Assembly: GCF_057098645.1 (NCBI RefSeq)
Contig: NZ_CM169472.1
Reading direction: 5' to 3' (one strand)
Length of the DNA: 64,000 nucleotides
Shown here piece by piece: positions 13,253 through 32,294 of this stretch. The notes below the pieces were generated by a model. The model worked only from the letters and a program-made list of their open reading frames with translations. It was not told the DNA's origin and made no database searches. Positions within the stretch are counted from its first letter, which is position 1; the number at the start of each line of letters is the position of its first letter. The translations under genes and the position numbers were made by a program.

Positions 13253-13269
13253 TTGGAAAAATATTCCAA
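13253..13269. promoter_or_regulatory. Candidate AllR operator in the allS-allA intergenic region
   Basis: Palindrome ttggaaaa-a-tattccaa. Confidence 0.45.
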
Positions 13270-13934: not shown

Positions 13935-14750
13935 ATGACGGAAGTTAGACGGCGCGGCAGGCCAGGACAGGCGGAGCCTGTGGCACAGAAGGGCGCACAG
14001 GCATTAGAGCGGGGAATTGCGATTCTGCAATATCTGGAAAAAAGTGGGGGAAGTTCATCGGTTAGCGATATTTCTCTCAATCTGGATTTGCCGCTCTCCA
14101 CGACCTTTCGCTTGCTGAAGGTTTTACAGGCAGCGGATTTTGTCTATCAGGACAGTCAGTTAGGCTGGTGGCATATAGGATTAGGTGTCTTTAACGTCGG
14201 TGCAGCGTACATCCATAACCGCGATGTCCTCTCCGTCGCCGGGCCGTTTATGCGCCGTCTGATGTTACTTTCCGGCGAAACGGTCAATGTCGCGATCCGT
14301 AACGGCAATGAAGCGGTATTAATTGGTCAGTTAGAGTGTAAATCGATGGTCAGGATGTGTGCGCCACTGGGCAGTCGTCTGCCACTGCATGCTTCCGGTG
14401 CGGGCAAAGCGCTGCTTTATCCGCTGGCGGAAGAGGAGTTGATGAGCATCATTCTGCAAACCGGTTTGCAGCAGTTTACGCCAACTACGCTTGTGGATAT
14501 GCCCACCTTACTGAAGGACCTGGAGCAAGCGCGTGAACTGGGCTATACCGTAGATAAAGAAGAGCATGTTGTAGGTCTGAATTGCATAGCTTCAGCAATT
14601 TACGATGATGTAGGTAGTGTTGTTGCCGCTATCTCCATCTCCGGGCCTTCATCAAGACTGACAGAAGATCGTTTTGTCAGTCAGGGTGAGCTGGTCAGAG
14701 ACACCGCCCGCGATATCAGCACGGCGTTGGGACTGAAAGCACATCCATAG
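13935..14750 (+). CDS. allR: IclR-family repressor AllR
   Basis: 271 aa; N-terminal HTH and IclR effector domain. Confidence 0.9.
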
Positions 14751-26138: not shown

Positions 26139-27188
26139 TTATTGCGCAAAGGGATTTTTCGTTTCGTATGACGTGTTATAAAGCGCGTCGGAAATTAAAT
26201 ACTGGTAAATATCATCAACAATTTCGATGCCTTCGACGGCGGCTTTGCGTTGTTTAATATCCTGATCCTGTCCGGGATAATAAACCTGATTTAAACCGGG
26301 CGCGGGGGTAATGGCATTTAATTCGCGCATGGTCTGGCTAAGATGTTGACGGAATAATTCGCTGGAGGAGAAAAAGTTCGGGTTAATAACTACATGTAAT
26401 TGCCCCAAATTACGCCCGGCGTGTAAATCGTCATACATCGAACTAACCTGTCGCCCGAACGGTAAGCCGAGTAAGACGCCTGAGAGGACGTCAATCATCA
26501 TCATCAGGCCATACCCTTTCGGCCCGGCTGCGGGGAGCAGAGCATGTACCGCGAACGGATCGGTTGTTGGTGCACCGTTTTTATCGACCGCCCAGGTATC
26601 CGGGATAGACATATTACGCGAGCGGGCGTCGAGCACTTTTCCCCATGCCTGTACGGTAGTCGCCATATCAAAGGTAAGGATCTCGTCGCCTTCTCCCGGC
26701 GCGGCAAAGGCCAGTGGGTTAGTACCGTAGTAAATTTCCGCGCCGCCAAACGGCACCACCATCGGATCGGACTGGCACATCGAAATGCCAATTAATCCGG
26801 CGCGGGCTGCCTGCTGCACAAAATAAGAGATTGCGCCGCTGTGACCCATCCGGCTGATACCGACCACCGCAACGCCATTTTGCTGGGCGGTTTTGATGGC
26901 ATGTTCCATACCCATTTTCGCCGCGACCTGTCCGGCGGCATTGTCGGCATGTAAAATTGCCGAGCACGGCCCGGTTTCCTCAAGACGAAACTCCGGTTCG
27001 CGGTTGGTGCCGCCTTTTGAAATGCGTTCCGCGTAGTATTCCACGCGCACCGCGTCATGAGAGTGGATCCCTCTGGCATCGGCGTAAACCAATACTTCAG
27101 CCACGGTTGCAGCGTGCTCACGTTTTAACCCAGCCTGGCAGAGTTTATTCTCAATTAGCTGGTGGAGTGTTTCCCGACTGATTTTCAT
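26139..27188 (-). CDS. allD: Ureidoglycolate dehydrogenase
   Basis: 349 aa; position matches AllD. Confidence 0.85.
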   Translation of the reverse strand: MKISRETLHQLIENKLCQAGLKREHAATVAEVLVYADARGIHSHDAVRVEYYAERISKGGTNREPEFRLEETGPCSAILHADNAAGQVAAKMGMEHAIKTAQQNGVAVVGISRMGHSGAISYFVQQAARAGLIGISMCQSDPMVVPFGGAEIYYGTNPLAFAAPGEGDEILTFDMATTVQAWGKVLDARSRNMSIPDTWAVDKNGAPTTDPFAVHALLPAAGPKGYGLMMMIDVLSGVLLGLPFGRQVSSMYDDLHAGRNLGQLHVVINPNFFSSSELFRQHLSQTMRELNAITPAPGLNQVYYPGQDQDIKQRKAAVEGIEIVDDIYQYLISDALYNTSYETKNPFAQ

Positions 27189-27505
27189 CTGTCTTCCTTT
27201 TTAACGACGGTGTGAAGCATGACTGCAATTAACATACAGGGAAAATATCTGGATTATGTGATCCAGACAGGCAAAAAAATATAGTTAGAATTTATTTGAT
27301 AATCTTCGCGCTTTTAACCTGGTTGTTTAAAACAACCATGCTTATTAAAAAATAACGCGTAATAGTCTGGCGGTTATTTGAATTCTTTTGTTAATAATCC
27401 CTGTGTGATATTCATCACCTTATTTACTCGTTGTCATCGATACCGTAATCGCCACATTAACACTGCTCGTGCAATTGCCATGGGTGCAATTTTTAAGGAG
27501 TTGTT

Positions 27506-29173
27506 ATGATCCACGCCTTTATTAAAAAAGGGTGTTTTCAGGATTCGGTCAGTTTAATGATTATTTCACGAAAACTCAGCGAATCAGAAAATGTTGATGA
27601 TGTTTCCGTAATGATGGGTACGCCCGCCAATAAAGCGTTATTAGATACCACAGGTTTCTGGCATGACGATTTTAATAACGCCACGCCGAACGATATTTGC
27701 GTGGCAATTCGTAGCGAAGCGGCGGATGCGGGGATCGCGCAGGCGATTATGCAGCAGCTTGAAGAGGCGCTAAAACAACTGGCGCAGGGGTCAGGCAGCA
27801 GCCAGGCGTTGACGCAGGTGCGTCGCTGGGACAGTGCCTGTCAGAAATTACCCGATGCCAATCTGGCGCTGATTTCAGTGGCTGGCGAGTATGCGGCGGA
27901 GCTGGCGAATCAGGCGCTGGATCGCAACCTCAACGTGATGATGTTCTCCGATAACGTTACGCTGGAAGATGAAATCCAACTTAAAACCCGCGCGCGGGAA
28001 AAAGGCTTGCTGGTGATGGGGCCAGACTGCGGTACGTCGATGATTGCCGCCACGCCGCTGGCTTTTGCTAACGTGATGCCGGAAGGCAATATTGGCGTCA
28101 TTGGCGCTTCCGGTACCGGGATTCAGGAGCTGTGTTCGCAGATTGCGCTGGCAGGGGAGGGAATTACTCACGCGATTGGCCTTGGCGGGCGCGACCTCAG
28201 CCGTGAAGTGGGCGGCATCAGTGCGCTAACAGCGCTGGAAATGCTCAGTGCAGACGAGAAAAGCGAAGTGCTGGCATTTGTTTCAAAACCACCTGCCGAT
28301 GCTGTGCGTCTGAAAATTGTTAATGCCATGAAAGCAACCGGCAAACCGACGGTGGCGCTGTTTTTAGGTTATACCCCGGCGGTGGCCCGCGACGAGAATG
28401 TCTGGTTTGCCTCCTCGCTGGATGAGGCCGCACGCCTGGCTTGCCTGCTTTCACGCGTTACGGCGCGACGTAACGCGATAACGCCTGCCAGCAGCGGATT
28501 TATTTGCGGTTTGTATACCGGCGGTACGCTGGCTGCCGAAGCGGCGGGATTACTTGCCGGACACCTTGGCGTGGAAGCCGATGATGCCCATCATCACGGC
28601 ATGATGCTCGACGCCGATGGTCACCAGATTATTGACCTCGGCGATGATTTCTACACCGTCGGGCGTCCCCATCCGATGATCGACCCAACCTTACGCAACC
28701 AGTTAATTACCGATCTCGGCGCTAAACCGCAAGTGCGTGTGCTGCTGCTTGATGTCGTGATTGGCTTCGGTGCGACCGCCGATCCTGCCGCCTCGCTGGT
28801 AAGCGCCTGGCAAAAAGCCTGTGCTGCGCGTTCAGACAATCAACCACTGTATGCCATTGCCACGGTGACAGGCACTGAACGTGACCCGCAATGCCGCTCG
28901 CAGCAAATCGCCAAGCTGGAAGATGCGGGGATTGCGGTCGTGAGTTCGCTACCGGAAGCCACCTTGCTGGCGGCAGCGTTAATTCATCCGCTCTCGCCTG
29001 CCGCACAGCAACACACACCGTCATTACTGGAAAACGTCGCCGTGATTAACATCGGATTACGCAGTTTTGCGCTGGAGCTACAAAGCGCCAGCAAACCGGT
29101 TGTGCATTACCAATGGTCGCCAGTCGCCGGCGGCAATAAAAAACTGGCTCGTTTATTAGAACGTTTGCAATAA
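27506..29173 (+). CDS. fdrA: FdrA, CoA-ligase-like subunit of the oxamate carbamoyltransferase operon
   Basis: 555 aa; position matches FdrA. Confidence 0.85.
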   Translation: MIHAFIKKGCFQDSVSLMIISRKLSESENVDDVSVMMGTPANKALLDTTGFWHDDFNNATPNDICVAIRSEAADAGIAQAIMQQLEEALKQLAQGSGSSQALTQVRRWDSACQKLPDANLALISVAGEYAAELANQALDRNLNVMMFSDNVTLEDEIQLKTRAREKGLLVMGPDCGTSMIAATPLAFANVMPEGNIGVIGASGTGIQELCSQIALAGEGITHAIGLGGRDLSREVGGISALTALEMLSADEKSEVLAFVSKPPADAVRLKIVNAMKATGKPTVALFLGYTPAVARDENVWFASSLDEAARLACLLSRVTARRNAITPASSGFICGLYTGGTLAAEAAGLLAGHLGVEADDAHHHGMMLDADGHQIIDLGDDFYTVGRPHPMIDPTLRNQLITDLGAKPQVRVLLLDVVIGFGATADPAASLVSAWQKACAARSDNQPLYAIATVTGTERDPQCRSQQIAKLEDAGIAVVSSLPEATLLAAALIHPLSPAAQQHTPSLLENVAVINIGLRSFALELQSASKPVVHYQWSPVAGGNKKLARLLERLQ

Positions 29174-32158: not shown

Positions 32159-32189
32159 TGATGAGAGCATCCGGCAATCGGCGCACCAT

Positions 32190-32275
32190 GCCTGATGCGA
32201 CGCTTGACGCGTCTTATCAGGCCTACAATGGGTACCGGAGCGGTAAGTCGGATAAGGCGTTCACGCCGCATCCGG
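32190..32275. repeat. REP/BIME palindromic repeats
   Basis: gcctgatgcgacgcttgacgcgtcttatcaggcctac ... ggataaggcgttcacgccgcatccggc. Confidence 0.6.
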
Positions 32276-32294
32276 CAATCAAATGAGCACCTGC

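What the first reader, a model, noticed from the sequence alone, without database searches (positions are those of the whole stretch)
27321..27337. 17-bp near-perfect palindrome in the allD–fdrA divergent control region
ggttgttt-a-aaacaacc is an 8-bp inverted repeat around a single central base, about 135 bp upstream of allD and 170 bp upstream of fdrA. Its symmetry and position suggest a dimeric regulator site, possibly for the LysR-type activator AllS, which is known to control allD. It does not match the AllR-like sites seen elsewhere in the window.
Basis: inference. Interest (0 to 1): 0.35.

Follow-up and report, generated by a model that had tools for sequence, protein, structure and literature searches.

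The report
Strain-specific palindrome in allD–allF control region
The palindrome is real, but its perfect symmetry comes from one extra G found only in the E. coli O145:H28 lineage, in the fastest-changing part of a control region where binding of the activator AllS has already been published, so it is a minor variant of something known rather than a new regulatory site.

Summary
The sequence is a perfect 9+1+9 palindrome, TGGTTGTTT-A-AAACAACCA, at 27320-27338, between divergent allD and fdrA/allF in an E. coli O145 genome.

The AllS guess is already in the literature. In K-12, a PRODORIC AllS motif maps to window 27324, and a 60-bp fragment equivalent to 27302-27362 was shifted by AllS-containing lysate (PMC12535856).

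The symmetry itself is not a conserved or required feature:
- Only 25 of 5,426 complete E. coli genomes carry it; every one with a stated serotype is O145.
- 3,117 genomes have TGGTT-TTTAAAACAACCA. K-12, where AllS dependence was shown, has TGATT-TTTAAAACAACAA.
- The difference is one inserted G (27325), exactly opposite the unpaired C27333. This is the signature of quasi-palindrome template-switch correction.
- The palindrome lies in a 67-bp patch (27305-27371) that differs 18% from K-12, against 3.4% at four-fold degenerate sites.
- This patch is also the least conserved stretch across ten genera. Their equivalent spacers show no consistent dyad.

The conserved elements lie beside it: two related sites (27284-27304 and 27376-27396) and TGTGA motifs at a fixed spacing of about 146 bp.

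Verdict: real sequence, known regulatory context, lineage-specific polymorphism, low interest.

The parts
27320..27338 (.). Perfect 19-bp palindrome TGGTTGTTT-A-AAACAACCA (9-bp arms, centre A27329)
   Evidence: Unique in the window. P=0.006 within the intergenic region.
27325..27325 (.). Inserted G that makes the palindrome perfect. Absent from all other E. coli alleles examined and from other Escherichia. It pairs with C27333 of the right arm.
   Evidence: Alignments. A 28-mer-exact search found 25/5,426 genomes with it. 3,117 genomes have the -G form, and 18 have the identical 60-nt haplotype without G.
27302..27362 (.). Equivalent of the K-12 fragment allFp -203/-144 that was shifted by AllS-containing lysate. 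The PRODORIC AllS motif centre (-181) maps to 27324.
   Evidence: PMC12535856; coordinates mapped through alignment A1.
27305..27371 (.). Hypervariable patch: 12 differences in 67 bp against K-12, 16 segregating columns among 9 strains, and a conservation valley across genera.
27284..27304 (+). Site A, GTTAGAATTTATTTGATAATC. Nearly invariant in 10 genera of Enterobacteriaceae and centred about -70 from the inferred allD start.
   Evidence: The transcription start is inferred, not measured.
27376..27396 (+). Site B, ATTTGAATTCTTTTGTTAATA. A diverged copy of Site A, 92 nt downstream on the same strand. It overlaps the ArcA motifs predicted at -134/-117 by Kim & Kim and is centred about -67 from the inferred allF start.
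   Evidence: A Site A weight matrix finds it as the second-best hit at +91/92 nt in 6 of 7 genomes. See also and PMC12535856.
27257..27263 (.). TGTGATC, invariant in every Enterobacterales locus examined. It is a CRP/FNR-type half-site about -36 from the inferred allD start.
27405..27419 (.). TGTGATATTCATCAC, a conserved CRP/FNR-like palindrome centred about 41.5 nt upstream of the inferred allF start.
27231..27236 (-). Conserved AACATA (TATGTT on the allD strand), the putative allD -10 hexamer.
   Evidence: Conservation; its function is inferred.
27441..27446 (+). Conserved TACCGT (TAnnnT across genera), the putative allF -10 hexamer.
   Evidence: Conservation; its function is inferred.
26139..27188 (-). 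allD (ureidoglycolate dehydrogenase), first gene of allDCE.
27506..29173 (+). fdrA = allF, first gene of allFGHK (oxamic transcarbamylase and carbamate kinase).
   Evidence: PMC12535856.

Best explanation
The 19-bp perfect palindrome is a lineage-specific, 'perfected' form of an older imperfect inverted repeat, not a conserved operator.

Almost all E. coli carry TGGTT-TTT A AAAC AACCA, in which C27333 of the right arm has no partner. In the O145:H28 lineage a single G was inserted into the T-run of the left arm, exactly opposite that C. This is what happens when a nascent strand briefly copies the other arm of a quasi-palindrome during replication (template-switch correction). Simple slippage cannot place a G inside a T-run.

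The repeat sits in the middle of a 67-bp linker between two conserved promoter modules of the divergent allDCE and allFGHK operons. Each module consists of a -10 element, a TGTGA motif and a GTTAGAATT-type site. The linker's length is held constant (TGTGATC to TGTGA is 143-147 bp across Enterobacteriaceae), but its sequence is free. Within E. coli it changes faster than synonymous sites.

The linker coincides with the 60-bp region to which AllS binding has been assigned in K-12, so part of it is probably touched by AllS. The dyad symmetry itself is neither required (K-12 lacks it) nor selected.

Shown: the sequence, its allele distribution, the derived state of the G, the lack of conservation, and the hypervariability. 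Inferred: the template-switch mechanism, the promoter positions, and the absence of a function for the symmetry.
For: Allele distribution:
- The perfect form is present in 25/5,426 complete genomes; all those with a stated serotype are O145.
- The -G form is in 3,117 genomes and the K-12 form in 729.
- The identical 60-nt haplotype without the G occurs in 18 genomes of other lineages.

Ancestral state: E. coli E69 and E. whittamii also lack the extra base, so -G is ancestral.

Mechanism: the inserted G pairs with the previously unpaired C27333. [quoted passage not shown] Perfect inverted repeats in proteobacteria are proposed to arise this way (PMC5941160).

Lack of conservation:
- The 10-nt bin 27319-27328 has the lowest cross-genus conservation of the upstream region, 0.51.
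- Best inverted repeats in the equivalent spacers of 17 other Enterobacteriaceae are not enriched over shuffles and fall at different places.
- Predicted single-strand structures are not kept between E. coli alleles: -10.0 kcal/mol here against -2.8 in K-12.

Hypervariability:
- The patch differs from K-12 at 12/67 positions, against 16/465 four-fold degenerate sites (Fisher p=3.7e-5). The rest of the intergenic region differs at 1/250.
- It is the most divergent 67-bp stretch outside a REP array in 34.5 kb.

Spacing: the distance between the TGTGA motifs is conserved.

K-12, which lacks the dyad, shows full AllS-dependent activation (PMC12535856).
Against: - The palindrome is improbable by chance within this intergenic region (P=0.006).
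- It lies at the centre of the only fragment reported to bind AllS, and the PRODORIC AllS motif centre falls in its left arm.
- The sub-strings CTTTTAACCT and TTTAAAACAAC are invariant in the nine E. coli alleles aligned, so some constraint exists there.
- A local regulator's site can evolve quickly between genera, so lack of cross-genus conservation is not proof of no function.
- No binding or expression data exist for the O145 allele.
- The template-switch origin is inferred from the pattern of a single event.
Confidence: 0.6

Rival explanations
1. The palindrome is the genuine AllS recognition site. An AllS dimer (one half of a LysR-type tetramer) reads the two arms, and from here AllS activates both divergent promoters. 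The O145 insertion improves or retunes that site.
For: - The PRODORIC AllS motif (score 1.00) is centred at a position that maps to 27324.
- The 60-bp K-12 fragment equivalent to 27302-27362 is shifted by AllS lysate.
- Delta-allS abolishes allF expression (PMC12535856).
- The palindrome contains a symmetric T-N11-A (27323-27335), the generic LysR-type motif.
- CTTTTAACCT and TTTAAAACAAC are invariant in E. coli.
- The palindrome is unlikely by chance locally.
Against: - K-12, the only strain tested, has neither the arms (TGATT/AACAA are not complementary) nor the spacing.
- In 99.5% of genomes the half-site spacing differs by 1 bp from the perfect form. A dimeric reader would not tolerate that if the arms were the contacts.
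- There is no conservation in Citrobacter, Klebsiella, Raoultella, Superficieibacter, Buttiauxella or Atlantibacter.
- The centre lies about -105 and -124 from the inferred starts, whereas the conserved Sites A and B sit at about -70 and -67, where LysR-type sites normally lie (starts inferred).
- The EMSA used crude lysate without a vector-only control.
- T-N11-A is frequent by chance in AT-rich DNA.
Confidence: 0.2
2. The AT-rich linker, palindrome included, is an architectural element. It would be bound or bent by ArcA-P or a nucleoid protein (Fis, IHF, H-NS), or it would simply set the phasing between the two promoter modules. Length and bendability would matter, not the palindrome.
For: - The TGTGATC to TGTGA distance is 143-147 bp in nearly all Enterobacteriaceae, and 146 bp even in S. 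marcescens and Providencia, despite free sequence.
- Kim & Kim predict an ArcA motif at -163, which maps to 27343 next to the right arm, and show ArcA dependence of allF.
- The spacer is 64-80% A+T in all genera except the K. oxytoca/grimontii pair, 52-53%.
Against: - K. spallanzanii carries a roughly 125-nt ERIC insertion in this linker, so length is not inviolable.
- I saw no IHF consensus by eye in either strand of the palindrome region.
- No binding data exist for any such protein here.
- This explanation overlaps the best explanation rather than excluding it.
Confidence: 0.12
3. The palindrome is transcribed and acts as an RNA hairpin (attenuator, terminator or small RNA) in a long allF or allD leader.
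For: - The consensus scan lists it as terminator-like on the + strand, with an 8-bp stem and 3-nt loop.
- A sigma-70-like match with -10 TAGAAT at 27286-27291 could start a transcript upstream of it.
Against: - The stem has only 3 G-C pairs and the tail is TGCTTATTAA, not a U-run.
- The hairpin is absent in K-12: -2.8 kcal/mol with a different fold.
- No structure is conserved in other genera.
- No Rfam family matches; the best hits are far below gathering scores.
- It lies upstream of both conserved -10-like elements.
- The activator sites reported by Kim & Kim lie downstream of it, which implies the allF promoter is nearer the gene.
Confidence: 0.03

Closest known systems
AllS (LysR-type activator) binding region of the allD-allF (fdrA) intergenic region, E. 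coli K-12 (Rintoul et al. 2002; Kim & Kim 2025, PMC12535856)
   Same: Same locus and the same 60 bp. The published AllS motif centre (-181 from the allF ATG) maps into the left arm. AllS activates both flanking operons. There is no AllR site here.
   Different: The K-12 sequence is TGATT-TTTAAAACAACAA, not a palindrome. The perfect dyad is confined to O145:H28. The exact AllS contacts have never been footprinted in any text I could read, and the EMSA used crude lysate.
Quasi-palindrome-associated template-switch mutations (Ripley 1982; the thyA hotspot of Dutra & Lovett 2006; PMC7202029; PMC5941160)
   Same: An imperfect inverted repeat becomes perfect through one change that is templated by the opposite arm. 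The change, a G inserted in a T-run, cannot be explained by slippage.
   Different: This is a single natural event inferred from population data, not a measured hotspot. Neither the strand nor the replication direction was tested.
Generic LysR-type regulator boxes (T-N11-A dyad; recognition site near -65, activation site near -35)
   Same: The O145 allele contains a symmetric T-N11-A (27323-27335) within an interrupted dyad upstream of a regulated promoter.
   Different: The position is about -105/-124 from the inferred starts. It is not conserved with the regulon. Sites A and B fit the positional rule better.
AllR (IclR-type) operator TTGGAA-N5-TTCCAA
   Same: It belongs to the same regulon and is also an inverted repeat.
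   Different: There is no sequence similarity (best 12/19). Delta-allR has no direct effect on allF (PMC12535856).

Membership tests
AllS / LysR-type operator | Interrupted dyad containing T-N11-A | tested here: inconclusive
   Present and symmetric in this allele (27323-27335). It is asymmetric in the common allele and in K-12. The motif is frequent by chance in 64% A+T DNA.
AllS / LysR-type operator | Recognition site centred about -65 (range -80 to -50) from the activated promoter's start | tested here: not met
   The centre, 27329, is about -105 from the allD start and about -124 from the allF start. Both starts are inferred from conserved -10-like hexamers and TGTGA motifs; no start-site data were available. 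Sites A and B lie at about -70 and -67.
AllS / LysR-type operator | Site conserved in orthologous control regions | tested here: not met
   It lies in the lowest-conservation bin of the region across 10 genera. No dyad is enriched in 17 orthologous spacers. It is variable within E. coli.
AllS / LysR-type operator | Direct binding by AllS and loss of activation when the site is mutated | not testable with these tools
   From the literature only: a 60-bp K-12 fragment equivalent to 27302-27362 is shifted by AllS-expressing crude lysate. No footprint or site mutant is reported (PMC12535856).
AllR operator | Match to TTGGAA-N5-TTCCAA as at allS-allA | tested here: not met
   The AllR site was found at 13253-13269. 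The palindrome's best match to either AllR-controlled intergenic region is 12/19.
Quasi-palindrome template-switch product | The ancestral state is an imperfect inverted repeat at the same place | tested here: met
   TGGTT-TTTAAAACAACCA occurs in 3,117 genomes and on the identical haplotype background. Outgroup Escherichia lack the extra base.
Quasi-palindrome template-switch product | The mutation raises complementarity and is specified by the opposite arm | tested here: met
   Inserted G27325 pairs with the formerly unpaired C27333. The arms go from 5+3 with a bulge to 9 perfect pairs.
Quasi-palindrome template-switch product | Derived state confined to one clade (a single event) | tested here: met
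   All 25 carriers are O145:H28, O145:NM or unnamed strains. None was found among more than 5,300 other genomes.
Intrinsic terminator / structured RNA | G+C-rich stem followed by a U-run, conserved, within a transcript | tested here: not met
   The stem has 3 G-C pairs and no U-run. It is not conserved, has no Rfam match, and lies upstream of both inferred promoters.
Repetitive palindromic element (REP/ERIC/MITE) | Multiple copies in the genome | tested here: not met
   It is a single copy in 64 kb even with 3 mismatches allowed, and occurs at one place per genome in E. coli.

The most novel reading that the evidence does not exclude
The published AllS operator assignment may be misplaced. The conserved activator sites of the oxamate-branch operons would then be the two related GTTAGAATT-type sites: Site A at 27284-27304 and Site B at 27376-27396. 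They lie 92 bp apart, about -70 and -67 from the two divergent promoters. The DNA between them, including this palindrome, would be a length-constrained but sequence-free linker. It evolves about five times faster than synonymous sites, either because overlapping quasi-palindromes make it a templated-mutation hotspot or because E. coli lineages are diversifying their allantoin regulation.
Probability: 0.3. Interest if true: 0.4.

Novelty: already known. Interest (0 to 1): 0.15.

Why it matters
As it stands, it matters little.

Two things are of modest use.

First, it is a clean natural example of a quasi-palindrome being 'corrected' to a perfect one. It also warns that a striking palindrome in a single genome is weak evidence for an operator until other alleles are checked.

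Second, the comparison shows where the conserved elements of the allD-allF control region lie: two related sites, two TGTGA motifs and a fixed spacing. These do not coincide with the published AllS motif. That gives anyone working on anaerobic allantoin regulation a specific set of mutations and footprints to try.

Tried and rejected
- **Conserved dyad or hairpin with changing sequence.** I tested the best inverted repeat and the DNA folding z-score in the equivalent spacer of 17 other Enterobacteriaceae. Nothing was consistent: the best other case was P=0.06 for inverted repeats, and only E. whittamii had a low z-score, at a different position. Rejected.
- **Compensatory change between the flanking CGCG/CGCG (window) and CTCA/TGAG (K-12) tetramers, as a long stem.** The other haplotypes break it and the predicted folds differ between alleles. 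Rejected as coincidence.
- **RNA element.** The Rfam E-value scan of 27100-27600 gave only two far sub-threshold hits, SCARNA7 and isrF. Rejected.
- **Repeat family.** There are no further copies in the window. Rejected.
- **AllR site.** No match. Rejected.
- **IHF site.** I compared both strands with WATCAANNNNTTR by eye and saw no match. This was not tested formally.
- **Exact AllS site sequence.**
  - Rintoul 2002 is not held in the library.
  - The 2025 paper has no supplementary text available.
  - A full-text search for the K-12 sequence string found nothing.
  - Searches for AllS ChIP-exo and ArcA ChIP at fdrA also found nothing.
  - The motif boundaries therefore remain unknown to me; only its centre (-181) is known.
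- **The pattern GAATTNNTTT-N1-4-ATAATC.** It hits only Sites A and B in 64 kb, but I derived it from those two sites, so the count is circular. The less circular weight-matrix test gives only 2.7 bits in E. coli (P about 0.1 alone). It gains weight from recurring at the same offset in 6 of 7 genomes.
- **Whether Sites A and B belong to AllS or ArcA.** This could not be decided. They contain TGTTA-like ArcA half-sites, and Site B overlaps the published ArcA predictions.

Full report
**What is there.** The window is E. coli. The allD-fdrA intergenic region is 100% identical to O145 strain RM9872, and the annotation gives allE-allC-allD on the minus strand and fdrA-ylbE-ylbF-ybcF (= allFGHK) on the plus strand. 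It reads TGGTTGTTT-A-AAACAACCA at 27320-27338, with perfect 9-bp arms. It lies 132 nt from the allD ATG (27188) and 168 nt from the allF ATG (27506).

In dinucleotide-preserving shuffles, a palindrome this good is expected 0.7 times per 64 kb; 3 are observed. Inside this 317-nt, 36% G+C intergenic region alone, the probability is 0.006. It is single-copy, matches no Rfam family, and does not resemble the AllR operator TTGGAAAAATATTCCAA that I located at 13253-13269.

**What is already known.** Kim & Kim 2025 (PMC12535856) studied exactly this region in K-12.
- allF'-lacZ needs anaerobiosis plus allantoin, and drops from about 4,155 to 115 Miller units without allS and to 102 without arcA. Delta-allR has no direct effect.
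- PRODORIC predicts AllS (score 1.00) centred at -181 from the allF ATG. It predicts ArcA at -163, -134 and -117, and finds no AllR site.
- A 60-bp probe, -203/-144, is shifted by lysate from AllS-overproducing cells.
- AllS dependence of allD comes from Rintoul et al. 2002, as cited there; I could not read that paper.

Mapping through the K-12 alignment, the probe corresponds to window 27302-27362 and the AllS motif centre to 27324, inside the left arm. There are caveats. Purified AllS failed, so crude lysate was used. The only negative control was the unrelated EBNA protein. No footprint or site mutant is reported.

**The symmetry is a strain-specific accident.**
- K-12 reads TGATT-TTTAAAACAACAA at this place. 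It has no G at 27325, A for G at 27322, and A for C at 37337's counterpart 27337. The arms are no longer complementary.
- In a nine-strain alignment the G at 27325 is unique to the window.
- Searches needing an exact 28-mer across the site count 25 of 5,426 complete genomes with the perfect form. Every one with a stated serotype is O145:H28 or O145:NM.
- By the same method, 3,117 genomes have TGGTT-TTTAAAACAACCA, including O157:H7, and 729 have the K-12 form.
- The identical 60-nt haplotype minus the G exists in 18 genomes of other lineages.
- E. coli E69 and E. whittamii also lack the extra base.

The G is therefore a recent, single, derived insertion. It sits inside a run of T's, which slippage cannot explain, and it lies exactly opposite C27333, the one unpaired base of the ancestral imperfect repeat. 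[quoted passage not shown] The mechanism is inferred from the pattern, not demonstrated.

**The context is a fast-evolving linker between conserved modules.** Using AllD as a probe, I recovered 80 loci. The divergent allD-fdrA arrangement, with an intergenic region of 295-317 nt, is found in Escherichia, Citrobacter, the Klebsiella oxytoca group, Raoultella, Superficieibacter, Buttiauxella, Atlantibacter and others.

The alignment shows these conserved blocks:
- the allD ribosome-binding site;
- AACATAC (TATGTT on the allD strand), a likely -10;
- TGTGATC at 27257-27263, invariant even in Serratia, Erwinia, Pantoea, Providencia, Budvicia and Pragia;
- GTTAGAATTTATTTGATAATC at 27284-27304 ('Site A');
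- a related block at 27376-27396 ('Site B');
- the CRP/FNR-like palindrome TGTGAT-N4-ATCAC at 27405-27419;
- TAnnnT near 27441;
- a conserved allF leader.

The palindrome falls in the gap. The bin 27319-27328 has the lowest conservation of the upstream region, 0.51, and every genus has a different sequence there. I tested whether other genera keep a dyad of their own at that position. They do not: the best inverted repeats in 17 orthologous spacers are no better than shuffles and sit at different offsets. Predicted single-strand folds are not kept even among E. coli alleles.

What is kept is length. The distance from TGTGATC to the allF-side TGTGA is 143-147 bp in nearly all Enterobacteriaceae, and 146 bp in S. 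marcescens and Providencia. The exception is K. spallanzanii, where an ERIC element of about 125 nt has landed in the linker.

**Hypervariability within E. coli.** Between this strain and K-12, four-fold degenerate sites of allD and fdrA differ at 16/465 (3.4%). The patch 27305-27371 differs at 12/67 (18%; Fisher p=3.7e-5). The remaining 250 nt of the intergenic region differ at one position. Across 34.5 kb colinear with K-12, this is the most divergent 67-bp stretch apart from a REP array between ybcF and purK. Among nine strains, 16 of 67 columns segregate, in mosaic combinations. I have no firm explanation. Relaxed constraint alone should not exceed the synonymous rate. The remaining candidates are templated mutation at overlapping quasi-palindromes, recurrent transitions in the CGCG tetramers, recombination, and diversifying selection.

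**Where an activator more plausibly sits.** The starts below are my inference from the conserved -10-like hexamers and from TGTGA motifs in class II geometry: about 27224 for allD and about 27453 for allF. On that basis, Site A is centred near -70 and Site B near -67. Those are the usual places for a LysR-type recognition site. The palindrome is at about -105 and -124.

A weight matrix built from Site A in ten genera finds Site B as the second-best hit, on the same strand, 91-92 nt downstream, in 6 of 7 genomes. The scores are 18.5 bits in Atlantibacter, 12.5 in C. werkmanii and only 2.7 in E. coli. Nothing overlapping the palindrome scores above -13 bits. In Erwinia and Pantoea, Site A is a perfect TTAGAA-TAT-TTCTAA dyad, and TTCTAAC recurs at Site B.

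These sites also contain TGTTA-like ArcA half-sites, and Site B overlaps the published ArcA predictions. I cannot say whether they belong to AllS, ArcA or both.

**Verdict.**
- Observation: confirmed.
- Interpretation: partly supported. The link to AllS is real but already published, whereas the inference from symmetry to a dimeric operator does not survive comparison with other alleles and genera.
- Most likely account (confidence about 0.6): a lineage-specific, template-switch-perfected quasi-palindrome in a length-constrained, sequence-free linker of a known AllS/ArcA-controlled divergent promoter region.
- Main rival (about 0.2): a true symmetric AllS site. It is refutable by footprinting and by +G/-G reporter fusions.
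- Novelty: already known.
- Interest: low (0.15). The side observations, namely the conserved architecture that disagrees with the published motif and the hypervariable patch, are worth a note to people working on this regulon.

Noticed in passing
window 27305-27371: A 67-bp patch differs from K-12 at 12 positions (18%), against 3.4% at four-fold degenerate sites and 0.4% in the rest of the intergenic region. It is the most divergent non-REP stretch in 34.5 kb and shows mosaic haplotypes among nine strains. The cause is unexplained.
   Followed up: partly
window 27284-27304 and 27376-27396: Two related sites (GTTAGAATTTATTTGATAATC and ATTTGAATTCTTTTGTTAATA) lie 92 nt apart on the same strand. 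The first is almost invariant in ten genera. The second is found at the same offset by a matrix built from the first in 6 of 7 genomes. They are candidate AllS and/or ArcA sites that do not coincide with the published AllS motif.
   Followed up: partly
window 27257-27263 and 27405-27419: TGTGATC is invariant upstream of allD in every Enterobacterales locus examined. TGTGAT-N4-ATCAC, a 9/10 match to the CRP consensus TGTGA-N6-TCACA, is conserved upstream of allF. Their spacing is fixed at 143-147 bp. Neither CRP nor FNR control was reported in the 2025 paper, which states that no Fnr site was detected.
   Followed up: partly
window 27464-27492 and 27218-27230: The conserved allF leader block GTGCAATTGCCATGGGTGCAATT contains the inverted repeat TTGCC-ATGGG-TGCAA and a terminator-like hairpin just before the Shine-Dalgarno sequence. 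A similar CATGACTGCAATT lies near the allD start.
   Followed up: no
L026 (K. spallanzanii) about 150-275 nt from the allD ATG; L037 (Serratia sp. Ag1) about 30-155 nt: ERIC-like repeat elements of about 125 nt are inserted in the allD-fdrA intergenic region. In K. spallanzanii the insertion is inside the variable linker, next to the position equivalent to the palindrome.
   Followed up: no
L006 (E. coli TUM9757), alignment A2 columns 338-344: A 7-bp deletion removes the fdrA/allF start codon (ATGATCC). No fdrA CDS is annotated at that end of the fetched stretch, so the first gene of the operon is probably inactivated in this strain.
   Followed up: no
window 27318-27322: A Dcm methylation site, CCTGG, overlaps the left arm of the palindrome. 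It is absent in K-12, which has CCTGA. Dcm-DNA crosslinks induced by 5-azacytidine are reported to stimulate template switching (PMC6357072 abstract). Any relevance here is speculative.
   Followed up: no
window 14454-14471 and 44614-44632: These are the two other perfect palindromes with 9-bp arms in the window. CTGCAAACCGGTTTGCAG lies inside the allR coding sequence, and AATTAATATTATATTAATT lies elsewhere.
   Followed up: no
window 32160-32295: The ybcF(allK)-purK intergenic region holds a REP/BIME array with a different copy number from K-12. It is the only stretch more divergent than the allD-allF patch.
   Followed up: partly
L020 and L021: Contigs labelled 'Sporobacter termitidis MAG' and 'Chryseobacterium sp. 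18061' carry typical Enterobacteriaceae allD-fdrA loci, with AllD 83% identical to E. coli and the same regulatory blocks. This is probably contamination or mislabelling in the source assemblies.
   Followed up: no
L056-L089 (Paenibacillus, Bacillus, Sporosarcina and others): Firmicutes encode AllD homologues 65-68% identical to E. coli AllD. In most of these loci the fdrA homologue lies downstream on the same strand rather than divergent, so the gene pairing is kept but the shared control region is not.
   Followed up: no
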